Source: Candidatus Poseidoniia archaeon
GTDB taxonomy: Archaea > Thermoplasmatota > Poseidoniia > MGIII > CG-Epi1
Direction of reading: 5' to 3'
Assembly (NCBI GenBank): GCA_022449785.1
Contig: JAKURQ010000005.1
Location: 1-48,397 of the forward strand
Length of the DNA: 48,397 nucleotides
Positions 6,404 through 35,808 of the stretch are shown in pieces. The notes under the pieces were generated by a model that was not told the origin of the DNA, did not search any database, and saw only the letters and a program-made list of their open reading frames with translations. Position numbers and translations under genes: made by a program. How positions within the stretch are numbered: position 1 is the first letter of the stretch; every line of letters begins with the position of its first letter.

Positions 6404-6637
6404 TTGGAACGAATCGAAGCAATGAAATGGACAGGTACAGGTTTAATTCTGACTGGAATTTTACTTACTAATTTAGATCAATATCCAATGAATATATTTT
6501 TTCATGGAGCCGGAGTTCTATTTTGGTCAACAGCAGGTTATATGACTAATGATAAACCAATAATGGCTAATTTCGGGTTACAAATTCCCTTATTTATTAT
6601 TGGATATACTAAATTATTTCTTGAGTTTTATAATTAA
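6404..6637 (+). CDS. Small membrane protein (about 72-77 aa, 2-3 TM), function unknown
   Basis: The listed ORF starts at TTG 6404. An in-frame ATG at 6422 (MKWTGTGLILTGILL...) is a more plausible start. The sequence is hydrophobic throughout. Confidence 0.45.
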   Translation: MERIEAMKWTGTGLILTGILLTNLDQYPMNIFFHGAGVLFWSTAGYMTNDKPIMANFGLQIPLFIIGYTKLFLEFYN

Positions 6638-7560
6638 TTTAGTTCTATGTCAGAAGTTCCTTTTACAGGAATGCCTTCGTAAGTTACAGTAATTTTAATG
6701 ATACATGTTGAATTACAAATATCAAAATTATTTTCAAATATAGCAATTTTTTCGTTTGTCTCCCACAAATCTATTTTTTCTCCTGATTCAATAATTGTAC
6801 ATTTAGCTGGCGAAACTAAATCTGAATTTGAAAGGGCTGGAAATTCACTATTACCAATGGTTCCAATCATAAATGATACATATCGTGGTTCATCATCATC
6901 ATTGTAATAACTTGTAAATTTTATTTTGTAATAATTTTCATTAATTTTTACAATGTATATCTTATCTTCAACTTCTATACGGTGTGTGGTTATTTTGTAA
7001 TCATACCAATCCAATCTTTCTTCACTTGTTTCCGTAAAATCTTGATTGGGTACCTCATTCAACTCCTCGAATGTTTTATCCTCTATGATAGTCCCAGTTA
7101 CATTCTCAGAAAGGTAAATATCAGTCTTAGAGAATCGGATGTCATAAGCAGTTTCATCAGTTTCCTTTAATTCTCCTAAATTGACGTGTGTAAAGTCTTC
7201 TTCAGAAGTCGCATCTATAACTACACTGAATGTTTCCCCATCTGAACTTAGTTTTGGAGAAACTTTTGCATTTCCAATATCTTTAGATGTAAAATTTCCC
7301 TTTGAACAGTCCATAGTTTCAGTTTCATTTTGAATACTAATACTTAATTTCGACCATTCCAAGCTTTCTTCTGATTTTGAAAATGATAATTCAAAAAGGG
7401 AATTATTTCGTTCATTTGTTAGATTATTAGATGAATCATTTGCAACAAAAATATTGTTTGTTCCTAAGTCTTCTTCATACGAACTTATCATAAAACTCCA
7501 TATTCCTCCAATTACTAATATTAGACTAACCAGCCCTATTCCAATTTGTTTTAAATTCAT
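6634..7560 (-). CDS. N-terminally anchored extracytoplasmic protein, HmuY-like domain (tentative); last gene of the ABC operon
   Basis: N-terminal TM (IGIGLVSLILVIGGIWSFMI). The blocks AYDIRFSKTDIYLSEN and DWYDYKITTHRIEVEDKIYIVKINENYYKIKFTSYYND resemble the WDxAFxR and vyiVrt..G.yaKv.ft.Y signatures of HmuY-family proteins. Its ATG overlaps the phnE-like stop (ATGA at 7557-7560). Confidence 0.4.
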   Translation of the reverse strand: MNLKQIGIGLVSLILVIGGIWSFMISSYEEDLGTNNIFVANDSSNNLTNERNNSLFELSFSKSEESLEWSKLSISIQNETETMDCSKGNFTSKDIGNAKVSPKLSSDGETFSVVIDATSEEDFTHVNLGELKETDETAYDIRFSKTDIYLSENVTGTIIEDKTFEELNEVPNQDFTETSEERLDWYDYKITTHRIEVEDKIYIVKINENYYKIKFTSYYNDDDEPRYVSFMIGTIGNSEFPALSNSDLVSPAKCTIIESGEKIDLWETNEKIAIFENNFDICNSTCIIKITVTYEGIPVKGTSDIELN

Positions 7561-8426
7561 TTTTTTGCTCTGAAAATGTTACCAAATAAAGATGGAGATT
7601 TGAAAGTTGCATCATCTACAAAGTAGGATCTTGCCTTTATTGAAATTAAATCAATAGCTATCACAACAAAAAATAGAATAATTAATAATGCAATTACTTT
7701 ATCATACTGTAAGAATTTCAGATATGTTGAGATATAATATCCAATTCCACCAGCCCCTACAATTCCTATAACAGACCCATGTCTTACATTGTATTCAAAC
7801 ATGAAAAACAATTGAGAAATTAGATTATTTGCAGTTTCAGGTATTACTACTCTCTGAATCATTTCACTATTTTTTAGTCCCATCGCTTTTGCTGCATCTA
7901 AAGGATCATTAGATAGTCCTTCTATAGTTTCATATTGTAATTTCCCTAAATATCCAACAGTGTAGAATGTCATGGCCAGAACTCCTGAAACTGGTCCCAA
8001 TCCGACAAGTATAACAAAGAAAATCGCCCAAATAATACTCGGTAAAGTTCTCATTGCCGCTAGTAAGAATCTGAATGGTATTGCTATCGAATCACTGTAT
8101 AAATTTCTGGAAGCTAAAGTGGCAAGTGGTAAACTAATAATGAAGCCAAATCCTGTTGAAACAAAGGCAATTTTCAATGTTTCCATAATACCAATGTATG
8201 CTGGTGAGCAAAGAAAATCCCAGCTTCTTTCACAAGAGGGATATGATCGCGCTTCTATAACTTTCCAATTAGGAGGCCATAAGGATTCGCGGAAAAATCT
8301 TGAAAGATTTTCTAAACTATTCTCAAGGCTTGCCCAATTTCCATCTACGAGATCAACGAATATTAGGTATGTAGTAAAGAGTATGAAAGTTAGGAATATA
8401 GGATATTTTCTTCTCGCGATATTCAT
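7557..8426 (-). CDS. phnE: ABC transporter permease, PhnE type
   Basis: 289 aa and about 6 TM. PhnE-like N-terminal region (LWPPNW ... METLKIAFVSTGFGFIISLPLATLASRNL) and EAA-loop region (YETIEGLSNDPLDAAKAMGL). It overlaps the upstream ATPase gene by 4 nt. Confidence 0.85.
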   Translation of the reverse strand: MNIARRKYPIFLTFILFTTYLIFVDLVDGNWASLENSLENLSRFFRESLWPPNWKVIEARSYPSCERSWDFLCSPAYIGIMETLKIAFVSTGFGFIISLPLATLASRNLYSDSIAIPFRFLLAAMRTLPSIIWAIFFVILVGLGPVSGVLAMTFYTVGYLGKLQYETIEGLSNDPLDAAKAMGLKNSEMIQRVVIPETANNLISQLFFMFEYNVRHGSVIGIVGAGGIGYYISTYLKFLQYDKVIALLIILFFVVIAIDLISIKARSYFVDDATFKSPSLFGNIFRAKK

Positions 8427-9112
8427 ATTTTGACCTCGCTCAGAATCGAATAATCACTTTCTTCATTTTTTTCTAATTTAAAACAACGTTCAGCAAGTCT
8501 TGCTCGTTCAATATTATGCTCTACTATTACTAAAGTAGTATTGTTGCTTGTGACATACTCAAGCATAGATTTCCAAACATTCTCTACAGTCTTGTCATCC
8601 AATTCACTAAGAAATTCATCTGCTAGGATTAATTTAGGGCCTTGAGCTATTGTTCTTGCTATTGCTACTCTTCTTTGTTGCCCTCCAGAAAGTCGTTTTA
8701 CCGGTTCGTCTATCTTATCAGACAAATTCATTAATTCGATTGTTTCTTTTACTTTATCGATAACTTTCTCTTCATGAAAACCAGATATAGATCTTAGAAT
8801 AGATTCATTGCATATGGCCCCTTCTAGTACGTTGGAGTAAACAGTTTCATGCTTGATTAAGCCTAGTTTTTGGGGAATGTATCCTATAACGCCTCTAGCA
8901 GATACTCCTTCAGTATCAAAAACTTTCAAAGTTCCACTTATCGGATTTACTAAACGTGCGATGCTCTTTAGAAATGTAGTTTTACCTATTCCAGATTCAC
9001 CTACTATTGATACTATTTCACCTTGCTCAATTTCTAGGTTGTCTATTTCACCTAAGATTGAATCTGGTGAATAACCTATCTTTAAATTAACAGCATGGAT
9101 GACACTACTCAT
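8423..9112 (-). CDS. phnC: ABC transporter ATP-binding protein, PhnC type
   Basis: Walker A GESGIGKTT, ABC signature LSGGQQRRVAIAR, Walker B LILADEFLSELD, H-loop VIVEHN. Confidence 0.9.
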   Translation of the reverse strand: MSSVIHAVNLKIGYSPDSILGEIDNLEIEQGEIVSIVGESGIGKTTFLKSIARLVNPISGTLKVFDTEGVSARGVIGYIPQKLGLIKHETVYSNVLEGAICNESILRSISGFHEEKVIDKVKETIELMNLSDKIDEPVKRLSGGQQRRVAIARTIAQGPKLILADEFLSELDDKTVENVWKSMLEYVTSNNTTLVIVEHNIERARLAERCFKLEKNEESDYSILSEVKI

Positions 9113-9180
9113 AGACGCCTCTAGGAGTCCTCCGTATTGGACGCACTATTTACCACTACATCATAGGAACTCTGAGGTGT

Positions 9181-9241
9181 TTGCTCATTGAGCAAGGTGT
9201 GAATTCCCTCATCGATATACTGGGACGTGTTGCGATGAGGG
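9181..9241 (-). promoter_or_regulatory. Intercistronic stem-loops between the binding-protein gene and the ATPase gene (putative mRNA stabiliser or partial terminator)
   Basis: CCCTCATCG (9206-9214) pairs with CGATGAGGG (9233-9241), giving a 9-bp stem with an 18-nt loop that starts 17 nt after the stop codon. A second palindrome is TTGCTCA-t-TGAGCAA (9181-9195). The 145-nt spacer is visibly more GC-rich than its surroundings. Confidence 0.35.
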
Positions 9242-9257
9242 GATAGCACCGTAAATC

Positions 9258-11366
9258 CTAGCCTGAGATTTCGTACTTCGTATCGTAGTACGTGCTTATT
9301 CCTGGAATAGCAGCAATAAGACTACTATAGGAACCAAGATGTTCCTGTGCATTTGCTTCTACTAATCCTGGAGTTCCCAAGACATTTGCTAAAATGTTTC
9401 CACCACATGCATTTTCATTCGATTCAGAATCAACCTGATGTGTAATTATATTATAGCATCCAGTATAAGTTTCACCTTGCATTTCATAGTCTACAACATA
9501 CATTTCATTATTCAGTGCAAGAAGGGCATTCAGAATTGCAGTTCTAGTTTGAACATTTAAATTTTCAGGGTTATACATTACAGGGTGTGATGGAGCTTGC
9601 CCAAAGGCAGGTAGAGCTACATATTCATCCCGTGGTAAACACCAATCTTCATTAAGACTAGAATCTTCATTTCCACAATATCCATCCACAGTTGAATCTT
9701 TAGCAAATGCAACATCACCAACACCTTCAGACAAACATTTTACAGCTCCAGAATAGCCGTAGTATGTTGTTCCAGAGTCAGGTATGCTTGCATCTTCATT
9801 GAAGAAAGCGTGAATTGTATCTCTTAAAGATTCGATATCATCATCGTCTCCAACTACTTCTGCATATTCATTAGAAATCAAGTATCCCATAGGTAGCAAC
9901 ATTCCTGCAGATTTCAACCATCCAGTATGACATGAGGTCTTACCTTCAAGTAATGCAAATGGATCGGTACTGTCATCGTCATCTTGGTAAGCAGCAGCCA
10001 TCTCAGAATCTTTGTGAACCCATGCGTGTGCATTGTAGTAAGTTCTACCATCTGATTTTTTGTCAGCAGCCATTGTAGCTAAGCCATATTGCTTCCAACC
10101 AACCCATGCAGCTCCTCCATCCATAAATGCAATGTCTGCGTTACCGAATCTTAATGCTTCGATTATTGCACCTTCTGAAGTTACAGGATACAATGTTACT
10201 TCTACACCAGTTTCAGCTGCTATGAAATCTGCTAAAGCTTGTGGGTTTTCTTCAGGGCTTCCTGAGTAATCATCTTTTAGTTCAAAAGCAATTCTAATCT
10301 CTGAAATTGTTGGAGTTACAGTTTCATTTATTGAGAATTTATCGCTATAATAAGCATTGATTCCAGGAATGTCTCCTATTAATCCACCGTAAGATCCTAG
10401 ATGAGTAGCTGCGTCTGTTGTAACAATACCAGGAGTTCCTAGAACTGCGTCAAGAATGGCAGTTCCTTCATCGTTATCTTTCATTCCAACAAGAGCATCT
10501 TGAACTTTTGTTTTTGTGTCATCATTTACAAATTCAGGATTATACATTACAGGATGTGAAGGTGCTGAACCGTAAGAAGGAAGTAAGATGTAATCATCTT
10601 CTGGAAGACACCAGTCTTCATTATCAGCAGCATTTTCATTTCCACAATAACCTGGAACAGTTGAGTCTTTCGCAAAGGCCACATCTCCGACCCCTTCAGA
10701 AAGACACTTTACAGCACCAGAATAACCATAGTATGTTGTTCCAGAGTCAGGTATGCTTGCATCTTCATTGAAAAAGTTAGTTACAGTACTTCTTAATGAT
10801 TCAATGTCATTAGGATCGCCTACAACGTTTGCATATCCATTACCAATAAGGAAACCCATTGGCAACAACATTCCAGCAGATTTCAACCAACCAGTATGAC
10901 ATGAGGTCTTGCCTGCTAATAATGAGAAAGGATCTGTGGTATCATCATCATCTAAGTATGCTGTAGCCATTTCAGAATCTTTCAAAACAACGGCATGAGC
11001 ATCGTAGTATGTTCTGCCATCTGATTTTTGATCGGCAGCTAATGCATCAAGTCCATACTGTTGCCACCCAATCCATGCAGCAGCTCCATCCATGAATGCA
11101 ATATGAGCATTTCCAAATCTTAGTGCCTCAATTATTGCACCTTCGGATGTTATTGGATATAGTTCTACATCCATATCAAGTTCTTTGGCCAAATAATCAG
11201 CCATGACTTGTGGATTCTCATCAGGATTTTCATAATCTTCTTTTACTTCATATGCGATTATGAACTTCTCTTTTTGAGTTTCTTCATCATCACTATCCAA
11301 ACAACCAGTAAAACTGGTTAGTACGAATAGCATAGCGAGCCCAAATACAGCAGTTTTTTCCAACAT
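9258..11366 (-). CDS. Bilobal transferrin-like substrate-binding lipoprotein (type II PBP, PhnD/transferrin lineage); predicted Fe(III)-binding
   Basis: Signal peptide plus lipobox (LTSFTGC). Two homologous lobes each contain FMDG, TYY(D/N)AHA, KTSCHTGWLKSAGMLLPMG, YYGYSGAVKCLSEGVGDVAFAKDSTV and APSHPVMYNP. These match the transferrin blocks LDAG, [48 protein letters not shown] and PSHTVV. Confidence 0.8.
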   Translation of the reverse strand: MLEKTAVFGLAMLFVLTSFTGCLDSDDEETQKEKFIIAYEVKEDYENPDENPQVMADYLAKELDMDVELYPITSEGAIIEALRFGNAHIAFMDGAAAWIGWQQYGLDALAADQKSDGRTYYDAHAVVLKDSEMATAYLDDDDTTDPFSLLAGKTSCHTGWLKSAGMLLPMGFLIGNGYANVVGDPNDIESLRSTVTNFFNEDASIPDSGTTYYGYSGAVKCLSEGVGDVAFAKDSTVPGYCGNENAADNEDWCLPEDDYILLPSYGSAPSHPVMYNPEFVNDDTKTKVQDALVGMKDNDEGTAILDAVLGTPGIVTTDAATHLGSYGGLIGDIPGINAYYSDKFSINETVTPTISEIRIAFELKDDYSGSPEENPQALADFIAAETGVEVTLYPVTSEGAIIEALRFGNADIAFMDGGAAWVGWKQYGLATMAADKKSDGRTYYNAHAWVHKDSEMAAAYQDDDDSTDPFALLEGKTSCHTGWLKSAGMLLPMGYLISNEYAEVVGDDDDIESLRDTIHAFFNEDASIPDSGTTYYGYSGAVKCLSEGVGDVAFAKDSTVDGYCGNEDSSLNEDWCLPRDEYVALPAFGQAPSHPVMYNPENLNVQTRTAILNALLALNNEMYVVDYEMQGETYTGCYNIITHQVDSESNENACGGNILANVLGTPGLVEANAQEHLGSYSSLIAAIPGISTYYDTKYEISG
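9261..11270 (-). repeat. Intragenic tandem duplication: lobe 1 (aa ~33-345, nt 10332-11270) and lobe 2 (aa ~355-702, nt 9261-10304)
   Basis: Long collinear blocks of identical residues link the two halves at an offset of 323 codons. A 43-nt perfect DNA identity occurs at 9761-9803 and 10730-10772. Confidence 0.9.
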
Positions 11367-11377
11367 TTTTTTGGTTC

Positions 11378-11448
11378 CTAGGGTTTAGGCAACCCTAAAT
11401 TAGGTGAGCCTAAAAAATGATGCTATATATAGTTTAGGTTTACCTAAA
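11378..11448. promoter_or_regulatory. Three DtxR/IdeR-box-like palindromes in the divergent promoter region
   Basis: TAGGGTTTAGGCAACCCTAA (11379-11398), TTAGGTGAGCCTAA (11400-11413) and TTTAGGTTTACCTAAA (11433-11448). Compare the classical DtxR/IdeR operator TTAGGTTAG(C/G)CTAACCTAA. Confidence 0.55.
11424..11431 (+). promoter_or_regulatory. TATA-like box for the DtxR-family gene
   Basis: TATATATA is centred about 27-30 nt upstream of ATG 11458, which implies a leaderless or near-leaderless transcript. Palindrome 3 lies between the TATA box and the start. Confidence 0.4.
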
Positions 11449-11457
11449 TTTTTTATA

Positions 11458-12138
11458 ATGCCTTACCTCAGCCCAAGTATGGCTAGTATGGATGCTCTAT
11501 CTGAAAGCGCAGAAATGATGATAAAGAATATCAATGAATTAGCTTCTAATGGTGAAAGAGTCCGAACCTCGGACCTTTCTGCTAAAACTGAATTGAAACC
11601 TGCCAGTGTTACAGAAATGATTCAAAGACTTGGAGAAATTGGATTAGTAGATTATGAACCGTATCACGGTGTTCATCTTACAAAACAAGGTCAACATGTT
11701 GCCGATGTAATTGATCATAGATTCAATATACTTCAAAGATTTTTAACAGAGATATTAGGCGTTGAAGCTGAAGAGGCAGCTGAAGTTGCTTGTAGAATGG
11801 AACATATATTGACAAGAGATGTTGAGAACCGGCTTAGTGATTTTTTAGGAGTCAAAAAGGGTACTGACTCAGATTTATTTTGTCATCAAGTAAATGTAGA
11901 ACCAGAAAGCGAACCTGAATTTGTCCCATTGTCTAGTTTCAAAGAAGGTAAAACAGGCAAAGTTCGTATAGTTATGGAAAAGAGTGACTTAACTTCTACT
12001 TTAGAAAAAGCTGGTTTGGCTCCAGGCCGTACAATTATTGTGAAGAAGGCTAATGGTAAATCATATGACATTGAAACAGAGGATGGTACATTGTCTCTCG
12101 ACAGTGATTTAGCATCAAAAATAATAGTACAGAATTAA
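11458..12138 (+). CDS. DtxR/IdeR-family metal-dependent transcriptional repressor with a C-terminal FeoA (SH3-like) domain
   Basis: wHTH plus dimerisation region aligns to DtxR (SESAEMMIKNINEL..., ASVTEMIQRLGEIGLV, HRFNILQRFLTEILGV, VACRMEHILTRDVENRL). The Met/Cys/Glu/His primary-site residues are conserved. FeoA-like tail: GKTGKVRIV...AGLAPGRTIIV. The listed ORF starts at GTG 11404, inside the operator palindromes, so ATG 11458 is preferred. Confidence 0.88.
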   Translation: MPYLSPSMASMDALSESAEMMIKNINELASNGERVRTSDLSAKTELKPASVTEMIQRLGEIGLVDYEPYHGVHLTKQGQHVADVIDHRFNILQRFLTEILGVEAEEAAEVACRMEHILTRDVENRLSDFLGVKKGTDSDLFCHQVNVEPESEPEFVPLSSFKEGKTGKVRIVMEKSDLTSTLEKAGLAPGRTIIVKKANGKSYDIETEDGTLSLDSDLASKIIVQN

Positions 12139-12494
12139 TGGCTTCAAAAGGCGTTCTTTACATTATCATTAGTGGACCTGACAGTCATCAAAGAGCTATG
12201 GAAGGCCTTAGAATGGCCGAATATCAATCTGGTGACGGAACGCATGGTGTTGCACTAATGCTCCAAGGCGAAGGCGTTGAATGGCTAAGAGAAGGTGGAG
12301 AAGATTATAGAAAAGAGATCCAAACATCTATTGGAGTTGTCCATGAGCTTGGTGCACCAGTCTTTGTATGTGGTGCTTCTCTCAATGAAAGAGGGCTAAC
12401 TGCAACTATGAAGGATTATAAATTTACCAATTCATCAGCTCCTAAACGAATAAGTCAAGTTGTTAACAAAGGATGGCAACTAGCTGTTTTTTAG
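12138..12494 (+). CDS. DsrE/DsrF-like family protein
   Basis: 118 aa. GVLYIIISGPDSHQRAMEGLRMA ... VALMLQGEGVEWL ... VFVCGASLNERGL matches the DsrE-like fold pattern. The ATG overlaps the repressor stop (TAATG). Confidence 0.55.
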   Translation: MASKGVLYIIISGPDSHQRAMEGLRMAEYQSGDGTHGVALMLQGEGVEWLREGGEDYRKEIQTSIGVVHELGAPVFVCGASLNERGLTATMKDYKFTNSSAPKRISQVVNKGWQLAVF

Positions 12495-25502: not shown

Positions 25503-25952
25503 TCAAAAGCTGAAATATTGATCATGCCAAGCTAAATTTCCATAATCTTTTATTTTATAATTATAAACAATGTTTTGTTTCCCTTCATTACTATTAAATT
25601 CTACAACAATAACCAAATCATATTCATCTGCATGTGGCCCATCGAAAATTAATGGAGGAAGTTTAACAGATTGTTTTGCTTTTAGTATTCCTGGATAATT
25701 AGTTTCAGTTACTAACATTTCAGTTCCGTTCCAAATTGAACTCTTAACTTTCAAATCAGTTATTTCTTGAGTACCTGCATTGTTCATTTTTGATTGTACA
25801 AATAAAGCAGAATAGGAACTATGGTAGACAGTATCTATCTCAACCTCTGTTCTTGGTATAACATACGAATAACAGATGAAAATTAGAAACAATGCAAGGA
25901 TAACAGTACCTGTTTTCACTAATACTCGTTTTTGTTCTTTACTAAAAATCAT
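25503..25952 (-). CDS. Small N-terminally anchored protein with a beta-rich ectodomain; 4-nt overlap with the giant upstream gene
   Basis: 149 aa. TM VLVKTGTVILALFLIFICYSYVI is followed by a beta-strand-like pattern. Its start overlaps the giant gene's stop (25949-25952). Confidence 0.5.
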   Translation of the reverse strand: MIFSKEQKRVLVKTGTVILALFLIFICYSYVIPRTEVEIDTVYHSSYSALFVQSKMNNAGTQEITDLKVKSSIWNGTEMLVTETNYPGILKAKQSVKLPPLIFDGPHADEYDLVIVVEFNSNEGKQNIVYNYKIKDYGNLAWHDQYFSF

Positions 25953-28900
25953 ATACTTGCCTCCAGAGATGCAATTAAACTCATTCCAGGTTCTGGAAGG
26001 ATGTAATGTTTTTCATCTTGCCCCAATTCAGTATCCATTCCATTTTTCTGTACTCCTAACCAAGTAGGTAGAATGTGATGATCAGCTACGCTTTTTACAC
26101 GCAAATCCATCATTACAGCAGATGTTTCCAATTCTATAGGGCCTATTTTCAAATTCCCGCCTATAGCAAACGATAGCTCTCCACCCCTTGCATTTGCTAA
26201 TTCAAATACAGGATAAAGACCAAAAATCTGGTTAGGAATGATTTCAACATGCTCTACATCGTTTGCATGAATTATCATATAATCAAGGTAAAATTGAGGA
26301 GTGGCAGGAGAATTTGTAGCTCTCAGATATGCATTTTCAATACCATTTGGAGCATCAATTATGTAATTAATTCCTTCTAACCTCATAGTAGTATTATCTC
26401 CTACATTCGTAACATCAATGAAAGTACCTGAATGCCCTCCAGTAAATCCTTCTTCAACCATAAGTGTAACATCAATTTCTGAGGAACTAGTTGTAACAAA
26501 TACATCAGGGAATCCTTGGAAAACGAATGATTTATCCATGTCGAATTCATAATTTGGATTAATACCCATATGGAATTTTTCTGAGACATCATGAACAATG
26601 GCTTGTGCAGAGCGCCAGTCTCCATAATCCTTATTTGCTGTTTTCACCCAAATATAATCAACTCTCCCTTCAGCTTCATAGATTATATCTATTTGTTTTC
26701 CAAAAATAATATCGGCCCGTAAATCTTTTGGAATTTCTGAGAAATAAATCTCATTGTAAGAATTTCCAGATTGGTTATGAGTTTTAAGATATGAATTGCC
26801 CATTCCTCCAGTTTGTTTAACATCGAATATGGCATCTAAATCACGATCTTGACTTTTACCAATATTGAAGTATGCATCAATATTGTTGTTAATCCCTACT
26901 TCATCTAGGAAGAGTTCAATTGCAGTTTCATTTCTTCCTCGATCTAAGTCAAGATAAATCCATTCAGTTACAGGCGACCAGTCACCTAATTTTAGATTAA
27001 TAATGTCTGGTTCACCAAAATCGGTGTCAAGTATTGCAGAGGTTACTGTCCCTTCTAGATACAAACGCAGTGCATCACCTTGATCATTCTGCCTTAAAAC
27101 AATTCCGTGTGTCCATGCCAGATCCATTCCAGATACATTTCCTGAATCAAGACTTAGTATGACCCTTGATGGGGCTTCAGATGCATTGAAATTCACTCCT
27201 ATTTGATCACCTAAACTAACATCTAGATTAATGACTTCAGGTACGTCAGGCACAGCCAATTCAAGTTTACTCATTGAGCTTTTATCTTCTACAGCAGCGT
27301 ATACGGAACCTAATGGTTTATTTGATTTGAATGTTACATTGCCAACCAATGAAGATTCTTCTGCTGTTTTACCTCCTGTTCGTTCACTATCATCTAAGAA
27401 TACTGAGGCATTAAGATCAAAATTGTCTGGCAAGTCATCTATTCTCAATAGTATACTCTTATTGGCAAAATTATTCACATCAACCAATAGTCGATTCATA
27501 GCAGGAACATCATTGTTAAAATCCTCTAACTTAATGTCTAATTTTGTCCCTTCATCTTCAGGATCCCACAATTTAACACCAATATTCGGAGAAATTCCTC
27601 TAATGTATCCTTTCATGTTCATTCCGCCTTCATCAGACATGTCAAGAGTGATTCCTTCAGTCCAATATGTTTCTAATCCTTCAGTATCTCCCAACTCAAT
27701 TTCAATTGCAACAAGATCAATAGCTTGATTTGAATTTATTTCAAAATCTAATAAATCATCTTTAATGTCCATTTGTACTTCCATATTTCCAGGTAAATTT
27801 GGAACAAAAGCTTCTATTCGGTAAGGATTTTCTTCTTCAAATTGTTCAATTACTAAGTAAACAGGACCAACCTGTTTGTTTGTATTCATTGTTAAATTTC
27901 CTTTAAGAGTTAAATTTTCAACAGTAGCATTGAGAGTTAAATCAGCATTAAGTGTTAAATCCAGACCAACGGGTATATCTTCAACAAATGCAGTTACTTT
28001 TGGACCAATAATTCCCTCTTCTTGGAATATAATATATTCAGCAGTGTCTCTAGCATTAAAATCCTCAAGTTCTAGTTCTAAATCTATTTTGTCGCCTCTT
28101 GAAGTGTAATTTGCATCAACAGACTGAGGTAATCCTTTCAGTAGTAGCCTTGCTCCAAGAATGGTTCCTCCTTCAACATCTTTTTGACTAGACCAAAGAC
28201 CTTCCACCCATCGAGGTTCTTCATCTAATAATTCTATGTTTCCTTTATCAACCCATGCAGTTACTGAAACTTCTTCATCTATATTGTAGAGGAATCTTGC
28301 AACAGTTTCAAATGATTCTACATTTGTAACTAAATTAACAGACAAACCTGCAACAGTATCTACCAAAGCCTTGCCAACATCAGATAGAGCTTCTATAAAT
28401 CTAGCAACATCTCTTAAGTCATTCACCTCTCCTACGTCACCCCCAATCACAGTATTAGCATCAAGCATAGGAACTGTTACAATAATTTCAGCAGGCAATG
28501 TGTCAACAAATACATAGGCATCAAGTCCTTGATAATCTTCCTCATAAATGGTGTCATCTATTGCTCCCACTTTGAATTGAACTGGTTGTTTATGGTTAAT
28601 TTTGAAATCTGCCAATTCTCCACTTCCATCATCATCGAGCCTCAGTGATTGCAACCAGCTCAAATTACCTGATAAACTTGCAGTTTCATTTTGAGCCCCC
28701 ATATTATTCTGATAAAGCATTACAGAACTGCCATTGTATTGAGAATGATTCCATACCCAAGAAGTAGCTTTCCCATCTTCAGTAGCATTTGTTATTGCAA
28801 AAGTGAAATTAAACCAACTATCTGTGATTAGTCTTAGATTGCCAGATGAACTAACTATTTCAGCAGAACCAGGCAAGTGTTCTAACTTAAGTCTAGAGTA

Positions 28901-31390: not shown

Positions 31391-31447
31391 TATTATTATT
31401 GAGAAACCATCTCTATAAATAAGGTTATTAGGCAAAATAATAGATGG

Positions 31448-35208: not shown

Positions 35209-35325
35209 GGCCTGCTAACGAAGGGGGTTTTTTAAATTGGCTAATGCCATTTAAATTAAGACCAACACCTCTATAAAGAGGATTTTTAGTCTACCCTAAA
35301 TTTACTTAGGAGTCAGTAATTAATT

Positions 35326-35808
35326 TTGAAAACTTTCCAGACAGTCGATGAAATTGTAGAGCATTATTTCTCTTCTAGCAGTCCCTTCAAGAGTAAAATT
35401 TATTCAGCTCTAGGTTCACTTTTTGTTGTTTTTGCAATTATAGGCATTTGGATTCCAGGATGGCCTACAGTTTCTTGGGCCGTTCCAGCAGCCTTCTTAT
35501 TTTCACTATCTAGTGAAAAATTGTTTAGGTGGACTCTCACTAATGATTATTTTGGCCCTGCATTGTTTAGATACTATGCAACAGGAAAAACACTTCCATA
35601 CCATGTTAAGTTGATTATAGCAGGATTTATTTTTTCCATGTCTAGTGCCTCAGCCTATTTTGTTTGGTTTGTTTCAACCAAAGGAAATGGTGACTTAATG
35701 AGTCCATCTTCTTGGGATGGTGCAGACCCTGGTTTTGGTGCAGGAACAATTCTTTTTGTAGGTCTTATTGGCATTTGGTATGTTTTACTTCAAGTTAAAT
35801 CAAGATAA
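35326..35808 (+). CDS. DUF454 (YbaN-like) inner membrane protein
   Basis: IGIWIPGWPTVSWAVPAAFLFSLSSEKLFRWTLTNDYFGPAL resembles the YbaN family signature. TTG start with GGAG about 14 nt upstream. Confidence 0.55.
   Translation: MKTFQTVDEIVEHYFSSSSPFKSKIYSALGSLFVVFAIIGIWIPGWPTVSWAVPAAFLFSLSSEKLFRWTLTNDYFGPALFRYYATGKTLPYHVKLIIAGFIFSMSSASAYFVWFVSTKGNGDLMSPSSWDGADPGFGAGTILFVGLIGIWYVLLQVKSR

What the first reader, a model, noticed from the sequence alone, without database searches (positions are those of the whole stretch)
6634..12494. Candidate iron-regulated uptake locus built from a PhnCE-type ABC transporter, a transferrin-like binder, an HmuY-like protein and a divergent DtxR-type repressor
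The gene order on the minus strand is: transferrin-like lipoprotein, a 145-nt structured spacer, the PhnC-type ATPase, the PhnE-type permease (ATGA overlap) and an HmuY-like anchored protein (ATGA overlap). Divergently on the plus strand lie a DtxR/IdeR-family repressor with an FeoA domain and then a DsrE-like protein.

Four independent cues point to iron rather than phosphonate:
- The ligand set of the binding protein.
- A repressor with a Met/Cys/Glu/His iron-type primary site (EMMIKNI and ACRMEH, compared with DtxR TEMYLRTI and ACRWEH).
- DtxR-box-like operators in the shared promoter region.
- An HmuY-like partner.

No C-P lyase or phosphonatase genes are present in the window. As a combination, this looks like an undescribed archaeal Fe(III) acquisition system.
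Basis: inference. Interest (0 to 1): 0.75.

Follow-up and report, generated by a model that had tools for sequence, protein, structure and literature searches.

The report
Archaeal transferrin-type iron uptake operon
A marine planktonic archaeon carries a gene cluster, so far annotated as a phosphonate transporter, that on present evidence is an iron-repressed importer whose binding protein is a true two-lobed relative of animal transferrin; this would change how iron and phosphorus use by very abundant ocean archaea is read.

Summary
All six genes lie at the stated coordinates.

**Binding protein.** It has 702 aa in two tandem lobes. It matches Pfam Transferrin as well as Phosphonate-bd, and its best solved relatives are lactoferrins. 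Both lobes keep the transferrin Asp/Tyr/Tyr/His iron ligands and the anion-site Thr, with Lys at the Arg position. That set is invariant in 242 of 243 lobes of close homologs.

**Repressor.** It keeps the DtxR/IdeR Met/Cys/Glu/His primary site.

**Operators.**
- Three exact TTAGG-N4-CCTAA palindromes fill the divergent promoter (0.07 expected in the window).
- The motif equals the first 14 nt of the DtxR consensus.
- It recurs upstream of the orthologous gene in Marine Group II and III genomes: 145 sites in 1.21 Mb against about 1.3 expected.

**Gene context.**
- An identical regulator and operator cassette drives an FTR1 iron permease instead of the ABC system on one related contig.
- Marine Group II versions of the operon add Fea1/phytotransferrin-like, flavodoxin, FecCD-type and HugZ-like genes.
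- No phosphonate catabolism gene is linked.

**Verdict.** This is an iron-repressed Fe(III) ABC importer and a new variant of a known kind. The HmuY-like assignment stays tentative. No biochemistry exists.

The parts
9258..11366 (-). Two-lobed transferrin-family substrate-binding protein (702 aa), probably lipid-anchored. It has an N-terminal signal with an invariant Gly21-Cys22 (FTGC). Lobes span about residues 34-350 and 357-701.
   Evidence: - Pfam Transferrin 2.2e-39 and Phosphonate-bd 3.8e-44.
- Best solved relatives are lactoferrins at 3e-29; no PhnD appears among the 60 best of 104 hits at E<=10.
- Ligands D93/Y121/T158/K162/Y215/H271 and D416/Y444/T481/K485/Y538/H594 are invariant in 18 homologs, and in 242 of 243 lobes.
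- The two lobes are about 70% identical to each other.
9206..9241 (-). Hairpin immediately after the binding-protein stop codon: a 9-bp stem CCCCUCAUCG/CGAUGAGGG with the loop motif CGUCCCAG.
   Evidence: - MFE -16.7 kcal/mol, z -4.77, 0 of 200 shuffles as stable.
- The Marine Group III loci with this spacer (L004-L006, L008-L011) have a hairpin at the same place, with a different stem sequence and the same CGTCCMAG loop.
- No Rfam match.
9113..9175 (-). Nearly invariant non-coding block just upstream of the ATPase start codon. It holds a TAAATA element and GGAGG/GAGG motifs, so it may be an internal promoter and/or a ribosome-binding leader.
   Evidence: Alignment of six Marine Group III spacers shows runs of invariant columns here, although the flanking proteins are only 68-82% identical. 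It is not significantly structured (z -1.45). The proposed function is inferred only.
8423..9112 (-). ABC transporter ATP-binding subunit, closest to PhnC.
   Evidence: PF00005 at 1e-29. TIGR02315 PhnC is the best NCBIfam hit, but at 148 bits against a cut-off of 266. It is conserved next to the binding-protein gene in 74 of 80 related loci.
7557..8426 (-). ABC transporter permease of the PhnE type. There is a single gene, so presumably a homodimer.
   Evidence: TIGR01097 PhnE at 224.5 bits, above the cut-off of 216.7; PF00528. Its start overlaps the ATPase stop by 4 nt. Conserved in 66 of 80 loci.
6634..7560 (-). Membrane-anchored extracellular protein with a probable HmuY-like beta fold (308 aa). 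Candidate accessory capture protein.
   Evidence: - Pfam HmuY E 8e-5, below the gathering score, but 18 of 18 homologs hit it.
- The AlphaFold model (pLDDT 63) matches the HmuY-family structures BfrB 8b6a (E 3e-4, TM 0.55) and PinO 6r2h.
- 68% identical ortholog at the same position in MGIII CG-Epi1.
- 37-41% homologs lie next to the transporter in Marine Group II, either upstream or downstream.
- One of those has its own operator-like site.
11384..11414 (.). Operators O1 (11384-11399, TTTAGGCAACCCTAAA) and O2 (11399-11414, ATTAGGTGAGCCTAAA). They lie between the TATA box and the binding-protein start, over the expected transcription start of the minus-strand operon.
   Evidence: Exact TTAGG-N4-CCTAA matches. 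The same arrangement is found in MGIII loci L004-L010, L030, L087 and L088. The position relative to the transcription start is inferred from the TATA distance.
11424..11431 (.). TATATATA element, the likely TATA box of the minus-strand transporter operon.
   Evidence: Read directly from the sequence. Conserved between the operators in L004, L087 and L088. No transcription start data are available.
11433..11458 (.). Operator O3 (11433-11448, TTTAGGTTTACCTAAA) followed by TTTTTTATAA. This is a likely autoregulated promoter of the repressor, giving a leaderless or near-leaderless transcript starting at 11479.
   Evidence: Exact motif match; sequence. The spacing from the TATA-like element to ATG 11479 is about 25 nt. 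This reading is an inference.
11479..12138 (+). DtxR/IdeR-family metal-dependent repressor with a C-terminal FeoA/SH3-like domain (219 aa).
   Evidence: - Pfam domains.
- Start set by homology to a 219-aa ortholog.
- Met13, Cys105, Glu108 and His109 align to DtxR Met10, Cys102, Glu105 and His106.
- Ancillary-site positions His79, Glu83 and His98 are Phe, Gln and Ala.
12138..12494 (+). DsrE-like small protein, overlapping the repressor stop by 1 nt. Role unknown.
   Evidence: PF02635 at 4.9e-11. It follows the repressor in every Marine Group III locus seen.
35285..35808 (+). Possible further member of the regulon: an operator-like site (35285-35300, TTTAGTCTACCCTAAA, one mismatch) downstream of a TATAAA, followed by a DUF454 membrane-protein gene (35326-35808).
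   Evidence: MGIII CG-Epi1 has a one-mismatch site at the equivalent place upstream of its DUF454 gene (L004 14648-14663). Weak; not followed further.

Best explanation
**What it is.** The locus is an iron-repressed, high-affinity Fe(III) uptake system of a Marine Group III archaeon.

**How it most likely works.**
1. A surface-anchored, two-lobed transferrin-family protein captures Fe(III) in each lobe. Each lobe uses an Asp, two Tyr and a His, plus a synergistic anion, most likely carbonate, held by Thr and Lys at a helix N-terminus.
2. The loaded lobe docks on a PhnE-type permease dimer.
3. A PhnC-type ATPase dimer powers release and import.
4. A membrane-anchored HmuY-fold protein, translationally coupled to the permease, is an accessory that probably captures or hands over an iron source.
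5. When iron is sufficient, the divergently encoded DtxR-type repressor binds Fe(II) at its Met/Cys/Glu/His site. It then occupies three TTTAGG-N4-CCTAAA operators that flank the TATA box and cover the start regions of both promoters, shutting off the transporter operon and itself.
6. A hairpin after the binding-protein gene probably keeps that mRNA segment more abundant than the transporter part.

**Shown in silico:** gene order, family membership, ligand conservation, operator enrichment and conservation, and gene-context associations.

**Inferred:** the metal bound, the anion, docking, the metal that switches the repressor, promoter positions, and the roles of the hairpin and of the HmuY-like protein.
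For: **Binding protein.**
- Pfam Transferrin above threshold.
- The 60 best solved-structure matches are all transferrins or lactoferrins, best at 3e-29.
- All four iron ligands and the anion Thr align residue by residue in both lobes. They are invariant in orthologs.
- Lys at the Arg position is also the commonest state in ichthyosporean and algal transferrin lobes.

**Regulator.**
- Met/Cys/Glu/His aligns to the DtxR/IdeR primary site. The closest solved Mn-type relative (8pvt) has Asp and Glu at the two discriminating positions.

**Operator.**
- Three exact sites in the window against 0.07 expected.
- The motif is identical to nt 1-14 of the DtxR consensus quoted in PMC7762939.
- 145 exact sites in 1.21 Mb of 80 related loci against about 1.3 expected. 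The nearest gene downstream is a transferrin-like gene for 93, a Fea1-like gene for 15 and the ABC ATPase for 11.
- The motif is present upstream of the gene in Marine Group II loci that have no adjacent regulator.

**Context.**
- The identical regulator protein P0548, with the same three-palindrome and TATATATA region, faces a one-lobed transferrin-like ABC system on one contig and an FTR1 iron permease (8.4e-33) on another, at the same position.
- MGIII CG-Epi1 places flavodoxin beside the module.
- Marine Group II operons add Fea1 (about 1e-24), Peripla_BP_2 + FecCD + ABC, flavodoxin and CREG-barrel/DUF2470 genes.
- No phosphonate catabolic family occurs in the window or among recurrent neighbours.
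Against: - There are no binding, transport or expression data.
- The AlphaFold model of the binding protein was poor (pLDDT 56.6), so site geometry could not be checked.
- The protein scores as well on Pfam Phosphonate-bd as on Transferrin. The permease passes NCBI's PhnE equivalog cut-off. How a PhnE-type channel would pass a cation is unexplained.
- The repressor's best NCBIfam hit is an MntR model, and its ancillary-site residues are not conserved.
- The regulator that reads the operator in Marine Group II was not found within 10 kb of the locus.
- The HmuY assignment is below Pfam's threshold, and a profile search of PDB sequences found nothing significant.
Confidence: 0.75

Rival explanations
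1. It is what automatic annotation says: a PhnCDE-type importer for phosphonate, phosphite or phosphate. The neighbouring metal regulator would then be unrelated or only incidentally linked.
For: - Pfam Phosphonate-bd at 3.8e-44.
- TIGR01097 PhnE above its cut-off, and PhnC the best ATPase hit.
- Sources name homologs 'phosphate/phosphonate transport system substrate-binding protein'.
- Tully 2019 lists phosphonate transport as a Marine Group II core trait.
- A GDPD gene lies beside a one-lobed paralog in a few loci.
Against: - The binding protein fails both PhnD NCBIfam cut-offs: 79.7 against 261.1, and 108.2 against 112.05.
- No PhnD structure is among its 60 best PDB matches.
- The full transferrin ligand set is invariant.
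- No C-P lyase, phosphonatase or other phn catabolic family is in the window or recurrent in 80 loci.
- The promoter carries DtxR-type operators across two archaeal orders.
- The module is exchanged for an FTR1 iron permease behind the same regulator.
Confidence: 0.05
2. It is a metal importer for something other than iron, for example manganese or another hard cation, under a manganese-responsive DtxR/MntR-family repressor.
For: - The best NCBIfam hit of the repressor is an MntR model (1.1e-28).
- The best solved relative (8pvt) carries Mn-type residues.
- JGI names orthologs 'DtxR family Mn-dependent transcriptional regulator'.
- The ancillary site is not conserved.
- From general knowledge, transferrins bind several metal ions in vitro.
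Against: - The two selectivity positions are Met and Cys, as in DtxR/IdeR, and not Asp and Glu as in MntR. The selectivity rule itself is recalled from the literature, not tested here.
- Asp/Tyr/Tyr/His plus an anion is the Fe(III) site of transferrins.
- The co-regulated or neighbouring genes are iron-specific markers: FTR1, Fea1, flavodoxin, FecCD-type importer and a HugZ-like protein.
Confidence: 0.1
3. It is iron-regulated, but the cargo is not free Fe(III) with carbonate. The transferrin-like lobes would receive iron from, or bind, an organic complex (siderophore-like chelate or haem-derived iron) delivered by the HmuY-like protein, which would then be the real specificity determinant.
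For: - The HmuY-fold partner is translationally coupled to the permease.
- It is linked to the transporter in several lineages, and in one of them it carries an operator-like site.
- HmuY-family proteins of Bacteroidota are surface capture proteins for haem (general knowledge).
- Some Marine Group II operons also carry a HugZ-like gene.
Against: - Most Marine Group II loci have the binding protein, ATPase and permease without any HmuY-like gene, so the core system works without it.
- The archaeal family has a single invariant His and no demonstrated haem ligands.
- The HmuY assignment itself is weak.
Confidence: 0.12

Closest known systems
Eukaryotic transferrins and lactoferrins (Pfam PF00405)
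   Same: - Homologous at sequence level (E 3e-29 to lactoferrin).
- Same Asp/Tyr/Tyr/His ligands and anion-site Thr.
- The SCHTG and KCL cysteines align with a transferrin disulphide pair.
- Two tandem lobes of about 330 aa.
   Different: - The host is an archaeon, and the protein has a lipoprotein-type signal.
- The gene sits in an operon with an ABC ATPase and permease, so delivery is presumably by docking on an importer, not by receptor-mediated endocytosis.
- Lys replaces the vertebrate Arg. This state is shared with ichthyosporean transferrins.
- The lobe duplication is independent: the archaeal lobes are 65-72% identical to each other and about 30% to eukaryotic lobes.
Bacterial ferric-ion ABC importers FbpABC / SfuABC / FutABC ('bacterial transferrin' FbpA)
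   Same: The proposed working principle is the same: a surface or periplasmic class II binding protein holds naked Fe(III) with Tyr ligands and a synergistic anion, and feeds an ABC importer that is repressed by iron (general knowledge).
   Different: - The binding protein belongs to a different family (transferrin/PhnD-type, not the FbpA type).
- The permease and ATPase are of the PhnE and PhnC type.
- The binding protein is two-lobed.
- The regulator is DtxR-type rather than Fur.
- There is an HmuY-like accessory gene.
Phosphonate ABC transporter PhnCDE
   Same: The permease passes the PhnE equivalog model. The ATPase is closest to PhnC. The binding protein matches Pfam Phosphonate-bd. The gene order is binding protein, ATPase, permease.
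   Different: - The binding protein fails the PhnD models and carries the transferrin metal site.
- No phn catabolic genes are linked.
- The promoter has DtxR-type operators.
- The neighbours are iron-related.
Phytotransferrin ISIP2a / Fea1 of marine algae
   Same: Both are carbonate-dependent Fe(III) capture at the cell surface of marine plankton. McQuaid et al. 2018, as cited in PMC7676907, trace ISIP2a and transferrin to phosphonate-binding periplasmic proteins. Fea1-family lipoprotein genes sit directly upstream of the transferrin-like gene, behind the same operator, in Marine Group II.
   Different: The window's protein is in the transferrin family proper, not the Fea1 family. The window itself has no Fea1 gene. 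Uptake in algae is endocytic.
DtxR/IdeR iron regulons of actinobacteria, and the archaeal DtxR homolog MDR1 of Archaeoglobus fulgidus
   Same: - Same domain set, including the SH3/FeoA-like domain.
- Same primary-site residues.
- The operator half-site and spacing are identical to nt 1-14 of TTAGGTTAGCCTAACCTAA.
- As recalled for MDR1, there are multiple operators around the start site of an operon that encodes a metal ABC importer, with autoregulation.
   Different: - It is not an ortholog of actinobacterial DtxR: the NCBIfam DtxR model scores 48 bits against a cut-off of 290.
- The ancillary site is not conserved.
- The operator is a 16-bp palindrome repeated two or three times, rather than one 19-bp box.
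- The MDR1 comparison is from memory and was not checked here.
HmuY haemophore-like lipoproteins of Bacteroidota
   Same: There is a weak but consistent Pfam HmuY signal and a fold match to BfrB and PinO. Both are surface proteins encoded next to an uptake transporter.
   Different: The Pfam score is below threshold. The protein has an archaeal N-terminal transmembrane anchor. There is no TonB-dependent partner. Haem ligands are not identifiable, and a profile search of PDB sequences was negative.

Membership tests
Transferrin family (PF00405) | Significant match to the family model and to solved members | tested here: met
   PF00405 at 136 bits against a gathering score of 20.3. Lactoferrin matches at 3e-29, and all 60 best PDB hits are transferrins.
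Transferrin family (PF00405) | Iron ligands Asp, Tyr, Tyr, His in each lobe | tested here: met
   D93/Y121/Y215/H271 and D416/Y444/Y538/H594 align to lactoferrin Asp60/Tyr92/Tyr192/His253 and Asp395/Tyr433/Tyr526/His595. They are invariant in homologs.
Transferrin family (PF00405) | Synergistic-anion site: Thr and Arg at a helix N-terminus | tested here: inconclusive
   Thr158 and Thr481 are conserved. The Arg position is Lys162 and Lys485. Lys is also the commonest state in non-vertebrate transferrin lobes. Anion binding has not been measured.
Transferrin family (PF00405) | Two homologous lobes in one chain | tested here: met
   The lobes align over about 310 residues at roughly 70% identity. 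The duplication is independent of the eukaryotic one.
Transferrin family (PF00405) | Reversible Fe(III) binding | not testable with these tools
   Needs purified protein. The structure model was too poor to inspect the site.
PhnD phosphonate-binding proteins / PhnCDE | Passes the curated PhnD models | tested here: not met
   TIGR03431 at 79.7 bits against 261.1; TIGR01098 at 108.2 against 112.05. Pfam PF12974, a broad model, is matched.
PhnD phosphonate-binding proteins / PhnCDE | Permease and ATPase of PhnE / PhnC type | tested here: inconclusive
   PhnE is met (224.5 against 216.7). PhnC is the best hit but far below its cut-off (148 against 266).
PhnD phosphonate-binding proteins / PhnCDE | Linkage to phosphonate catabolism (C-P lyase, phosphonatase) or phosphate-starvation control | tested here: not met
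   No such family occurs in the window or among recurrent neighbours in 80 loci. The promoter carries DtxR-type operators.
DtxR/IdeR iron-dependent repressors | N-terminal HTH, dimerisation/metal domain and SH3-like C-terminal domain | tested here: met
   PF01325, PF02742 and PF04023 are all above threshold.
DtxR/IdeR iron-dependent repressors | Primary metal site Met10, Cys102, Glu105, His106 | tested here: met
   Met13, Cys105, Glu108 and His109 align to it in IdeR and DtxR structures.
DtxR/IdeR iron-dependent repressors | Ancillary site His79, Glu83, His98 | tested here: not met
   The aligned residues are Phe, Gln and Ala.
DtxR/IdeR iron-dependent repressors | Operator related to TTAGGTTAGCCTAACCTAA in the promoters of iron genes | tested here: met
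   TTAGG-N4-CCTAA equals nt 1-14 of the consensus. It is found upstream of transferrin-like, Fea1-like and FTR1 genes. Binding itself is untested.
DtxR/IdeR iron-dependent repressors | Fe(II)-dependent DNA binding | not testable with these tools
   Needs EMSA or in vivo reporter work.
HmuY family (PF14064) | Passes the family model | tested here: not met
   23.2 bits against a gathering score of 27. All 18 homologs hit at E<0.01.
HmuY family (PF14064) | HmuY beta fold | tested here: inconclusive
   A model of moderate confidence (pLDDT 63) matches BfrB 8b6a at E 3e-4 and TM 0.55 (normalised by target), and PinO 6r2h.
HmuY family (PF14064) | Haem-ligating His/Met pair | not tested
   Only one invariant His (H193), in a low-confidence segment. 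No reliable alignment to HmuY ligands was obtained.

The most novel reading that the evidence does not exclude
The planktonic Marine Group II and III archaea use a genuine transferrin as the binding protein of a PhnCE-type ABC importer. On this reading, the family is the surviving prokaryotic form of the protein from which eukaryotic transferrins arose, after a PhnD-like phosphonate binder switched to carbonate-assisted Fe(III) binding. The converse, capture of a eukaryotic gene, would be a rarer event. Two consequences would follow. The 'phosphonate transport' counted as a core trait of these archaea would really be their main route for inorganic iron. Their iron uptake would also depend on seawater carbonate, as in diatoms.
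Probability: 0.35. Interest if true: 0.85.

Novelty: new variant of a known kind. Interest (0 to 1): 0.72.

Why it matters
Marine Group II and III archaea are among the most abundant heterotrophs of the surface and deep ocean, and none is in culture.

**Ecology and annotation.**
- Genome surveys count a phosphonate transporter among their core traits (Tully 2019).
- If that transporter is an iron importer, their inferred phosphorus physiology loses a pillar. Their iron physiology gains a defined, regulated, high-affinity system with a recognisable operator. That operator can be used to map the iron regulon in metagenomes.

**Evolution.**
- These are close prokaryotic relatives of eukaryotic transferrin that still sit in an ABC-transporter operon.
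- They make the proposed descent of transferrin and phytotransferrin from phosphonate-binding proteins directly testable.
- Marine Group II combines a transferrin-like and a Fea1/phytotransferrin-like gene in one operon. This parallels the iron-starvation gene sets of marine algae.

Tried and rejected
- **Literature.** Ten searches found no paper on transferrin-like proteins in Marine Group II or III. Several apparent hits were the word 'transferring'. McQuaid 2018 and the MGIII paper of Haro-Moreno 2017 are not held. I therefore cannot exclude that the archaeal sequences already appear in a published transferrin tree.\n- **Structure of the binding protein.** The model was too poor to use (pLDDT 56.6) and I did not run a fold search on it.\n- **Spacer as an RNA family.** No Rfam match. 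The whole-spacer fold is not significant. A MAFFT-based consensus fold of the hairpin was out of structural register and uninformative, so the covariation argument rests on folding each sequence separately.\n- **Gene upstream of the Marine Group II binding-protein gene.** The 306-aa gene is not an HmuY-like homolog and has no Pfam match.\n- **HmuY by sequence.** A profile search against PDB sequences gave nothing significant.\n- **Marine Group II regulator.** I looked for a DtxR homolog within 10 kb of the Marine Group II loci and found none. The database hits shown for the repressor were all 68% identical or more and came from MGIII-type contexts.

Full report
**1. What is in the sequence**

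Minus strand, in order of transcription:
- a 702-aa binding protein (9258-11366);
- a 145-nt spacer;
- an ABC ATPase (8423-9112);
- a permease (7557-8426), whose ATG overlaps the ATPase stop by 4 nt;
- a 308-aa membrane-anchored protein (6634-7560), again with a 4-nt overlap.

Plus strand, divergent:
- a DtxR-family regulator;
- a DsrE-like protein (12138-12494), overlapping the regulator by one base.

Family scans gave the following:
- The permease passes NCBI's PhnE equivalog model (224.5 bits, cut-off 216.7).
- The ATPase is closest to PhnC but far below its cut-off.
- The regulator has the three DtxR domains.
- The last gene hits Pfam HmuY at E 8e-5, below the gathering score.

By homology to a 219-aa ortholog, the regulator starts at ATG 11479. 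The longer GTG-initiated ORF would run over the operators. Protein identities of 54-90% and shared gene blocks with 'Marine Group III euryarchaeote CG-Epi1' place the window in a Marine Group III relative.

**2. The binding protein is a transferrin homolog with an intact metal site in both lobes**

- It matches Pfam Transferrin (2.2e-39) as well as Phosphonate-bd (3.8e-44), but fails both curated PhnD models.
- Against all PDB sequences, the 60 best matches are lactoferrins, transferrins and melanotransferrin, the best at 3e-29. With one lobe as query and E up to 10, there are only 104 hits, and again the 60 best are all transferrins.
- From the printed alignments to equine lactoferrin I mapped these residues:

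| Window N-lobe / C-lobe | Lactoferrin N-lobe / C-lobe |
|---|---|
| D93 / D416 | Asp60 / Asp395 |
| Y121 / Y444 | Tyr92 / Tyr433 |
| T158 / T481 | Thr117 (anion site) |
| K162 / K485 | Arg121 |
| Y215 / Y538 | Tyr192 / Tyr526 |
| H271 / H594 | His253 / His595 |

- All twelve residues are invariant in an alignment of 18 homologs down to 65% identity.
- In a profile alignment of all lobes, 242 of 243 lobes from the 120 closest database proteins read D-Y-T-K-Y-H.
- The same alignment shows that Lys at the 'Arg' position is the commonest state in transferrin lobes of ichthyosporeans and a green alga. It is not a defect.
- The two lobes are about 70% identical to each other. N-lobes from Marine Group II and III cluster together, and so do C-lobes. 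Identity to eukaryotic lobes is about 30%. So there was one archaeal duplication, independent of the eukaryotic ones.
- The N-terminus has a hydrophobic signal ending in an invariant Gly-Cys, consistent with a lipid anchor.
- The AlphaFold model was poor (pLDDT 56.6) and was not used.

**3. The family is small and archaeal, and its next relatives are eukaryotic transferrins**

- An exhaustive search of 1.84 billion representatives found only 421 clusters at E<0.001.
- The nearest are from Euryarchaeota, Poseidoniaceae and Thermoplasmatota bins. They include one-lobed (317-358 aa), two-lobed and one three-lobed form. The next are multi-lobed proteins of Chromosphaera, Creolimax, Amoebidium, Ichthyophonus, Sphaeroforma and Bryopsis.
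- In one genome per species, 239 stretches encode a relative. The best 80 are all from Marine Group II (Poseidoniaceae, Thalassarchaeaceae) or Marine Group III. They include the first Marine Group II genome, CM001443.1. Two come from bins labelled as alphaproteobacteria, which look mis-binned.
- Some divergent archaeal paralogs, and some C-lobes, have lost the ligand set. The family is therefore not functionally uniform. The window's protein belongs to the canonical group.

**4. The regulator and its operator**

*Metal sites.*
- Aligned to IdeR and DtxR structures, the regulator has Met13, Cys105, Glu108 and His109 at the positions of the DtxR primary site (Met10, Cys102, Glu105, His106).
- Its closest solved relative, 8pvt, has Asp and Glu at the two discriminating positions.
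- That Met/Cys marks iron-responsive members and Asp/Glu marks manganese-responsive members is established knowledge, recalled from work on DtxR and MntR. It was not tested here.
- The ancillary-site residues His79, Glu83 and His98 are Phe, Gln and Ala.

*Operators in the window.*
- The 112-bp divergent region holds three exact TTAGG-N4-CCTAA palindromes, at 11385-11398, 11400-11413 and 11434-11447.
- They are the only three in the window, with 0.07 expected and 0 of 100 shuffles reaching three.
- The DtxR consensus quoted in PMC7762939 is TTAGGTTAGCCTAACCTAA. Its first 14 nt have exactly this form.

*Promoter reading (inferred).*
- A TATATATA element (11424-11431) lies between O2 and O3.
- O1 and O2 lie where the minus-strand transcript should start.
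- O3 abuts a TTTTTTATAA element about 25 nt before ATG 11479.
- This fits repression of both promoters, and autoregulation. No transcription start data exist.

**5. Comparative genomics**

*Conservation of the module.* It is conserved in Marine Group III genomes as DsrE, regulator, binding protein, ATPase, permease and HmuY-like gene. Outer flanks differ, and in CG-Epi1 a flavodoxin gene lies next to DsrE.

*The operator travels with the gene.*
- Marine Group II loci keep the binding protein, ATPase and permease but have no regulator within 10 kb. Yet the same palindrome sits within about 120 bp upstream of the binding-protein gene.
- Over 80 loci (1.21 Mb) there are 145 exact sites against about 1.3 expected from base composition.
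- The nearest gene start downstream is a transferrin-like gene for 93 sites, a Fea1-like gene for 15 and the ABC ATPase for 11.
- Of 55 canonical two-lobed genes with enough upstream sequence, 50 have a site within 300 bp. In three of the other five (L058, L065, L068) the site lies upstream of a Fea1-like gene that precedes the binding-protein gene; L027 and L028 have no exact site in the locus.

*Iron-related neighbours in Marine Group II.* Several operons carry, behind the operator:
- a lipoprotein of the Fea1 family (about 1e-24), the family of algal phytotransferrins;
- flavodoxin;
- a Peripla_BP_2 + FecCD + ABC importer;
- a CREG-barrel/DUF2470 protein of the HugZ type;
- a separately regulated one-lobed transferrin-like gene.

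*Gene displacement, the most telling case.* The identical regulator protein P0548, with the same three palindromes and TATATATA and at the same position next to mutL, faces two different genes. On one contig it is a one-lobed transferrin-like ABC system. On another it is an FTR1-family iron permease (8.4e-33).

*No phosphonate link.* No phosphonate catabolic family was found in the window or among gene clusters that recur near the locus.

**6. The HmuY-like protein**

- All 18 aligned homologs hit Pfam HmuY at E<0.01, none convincingly.
- A model of moderate confidence (pLDDT 63) matches the HmuY-family structures BfrB (E 3e-4, TM 0.55 by target length) and PinO.
- A sequence-profile search of the PDB found nothing significant.
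- The gene is 68% identical and syntenic in CG-Epi1.
- Homologs of 37-41% identity lie beside the transporter in some Marine Group II genomes, upstream in some and downstream in others. One of them has an operator-like site of its own.
- The link to the transporter is therefore real. The fold assignment is probable. Haem binding is not supported by anything yet.

**7. The spacer**

- The whole 145-nt spacer is not unusually stable (z -1.76) and matches no Rfam family.
- It contains a hairpin right after the stop codon (9206-9241, z -4.8).
- The Marine Group III loci with this spacer (L004-L006, L008-L011) have a hairpin at the same place, with a different stem sequence and the same loop motif CGTCCMAG.
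- The last 60 nt or so before the ATPase start are nearly invariant among these genomes.
- I read the hairpin as an RNA element that sets the ratio of binding protein to transporter. I read the invariant block as an internal promoter or translation leader. Both readings are inferences.

**8. Comparison with what is known, and novelty**

- The system works like bacterial FbpABC-type ferric importers, but with unrelated parts: a transferrin-family, two-lobed binding protein on a PhnCE-type translocator, under a DtxR-type repressor.
- It is a member of the transferrin family by sequence and by ligand set.
- It is not a PhnD by the curated models.
- The regulator is a DtxR-family member with an iron-type primary site, but it is not an ortholog of actinobacterial DtxR.
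- I found no paper describing it. Tully 2019 lists 'transport of phosphonates' as a core Marine Group II trait, which most likely refers to these genes; that link is my inference.
- A review citing McQuaid 2018 states that transferrin and phytotransferrin descend from phosphonate-binding periplasmic proteins. The archaeal proteins fit that picture as a form still attached to its transporter.
All functional statements still await biochemistry and expression data.

Noticed in passing
L087:5113-6000 versus L088:3211-6000: Two contigs encode the identical DtxR-type regulator with the same three-palindrome intergenic region next to mutL. One contig has an FTR1 iron permease where the other has a one-lobed transferrin-like binding protein, ATPase and permease. 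The slot beside the regulator behaves as an exchangeable iron-uptake cassette.
   Followed up: yes
L068:2080-13345, L058:3434-14812, L055:2163-8482: Marine Group II versions of the operon place a Fea1-family (phytotransferrin-type) lipoprotein gene behind the operator, upstream of the transferrin-like gene. Some insert a large CarboxypepD_reg-domain protein, a Peripla_BP_2/FecCD/ABC importer, flavodoxin and a CREG-barrel/DUF2470 (HugZ-like) gene before the PhnC/PhnE-type genes. A published survey had found no PF13883 (CREG) proteins in archaea (PMC7883536).
   Followed up: partly
window 35285-35808; L004:14648-15198: An operator-like site with one mismatch lies just downstream of a TATAAA and 26 nt upstream of a DUF454 (YbaN-like) membrane-protein gene. 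CG-Epi1 has a one-mismatch site at the equivalent place. In Marine Group II locus L063 a DUF454-like gene lies next to the HmuY-like gene. DUF454 may belong to the same regulon.
   Followed up: partly
window 9206-9241 and 9113-9175: A hairpin with covarying stem and a conserved loop CGTCCMAG follows the binding-protein stop codon in Marine Group III genomes. A nearly invariant block of about 60 nt precedes the ATPase start. Neither matches an Rfam family.
   Followed up: partly
window 12138-12494: A DsrE-like gene with a single Cys (VFVCGAS) overlaps the repressor stop by one base. It follows the repressor in every Marine Group III locus, usually with thioredoxin nearby. Its link to iron control is unexplained.
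   Followed up: no
P0122, P0123, P0125, P0128, P0129; L007:11986-14082; C-lobes in L055, L075, L077, L079, L080, L082-L084: Divergent archaeal paralogs, and some C-lobes, of the two-lobed protein have lost most of the iron and anion ligands (for example AHTDPE, NSSDDD). They may bind something else or nothing. L007 carries a canonical and a degenerate copy in tandem.
   Followed up: no
P0031 (1156 aa): A three-lobed relative, 57% identical, has three full transferrin-like lobes and a fragment of a fourth.
   Followed up: no
L054 and L082: Two contigs that carry the archaeal locus sit in bins labelled Rhodobiaceae and Rhodobacteraceae. Their gene content matches Marine Group II, so the bins are probably contaminated.
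   Followed up: no
window 25949-31435: A very long ORF (1828 aa, minus strand) has no Pfam match at E<0.001.
   Followed up: no
L052:4200, L059:4195, L061:4194, L070:4194, L069:4285: An exact operator palindrome also recurs in Marine Group II. There it lies between a sugar-nucleotidyltransferase-like gene and a divergent gene for a membrane protein of about 235 aa (147 aa in L069) with no Pfam match, about 5.8 kb upstream of the binding-protein gene. This is another possible regulon member.
   Followed up: partly
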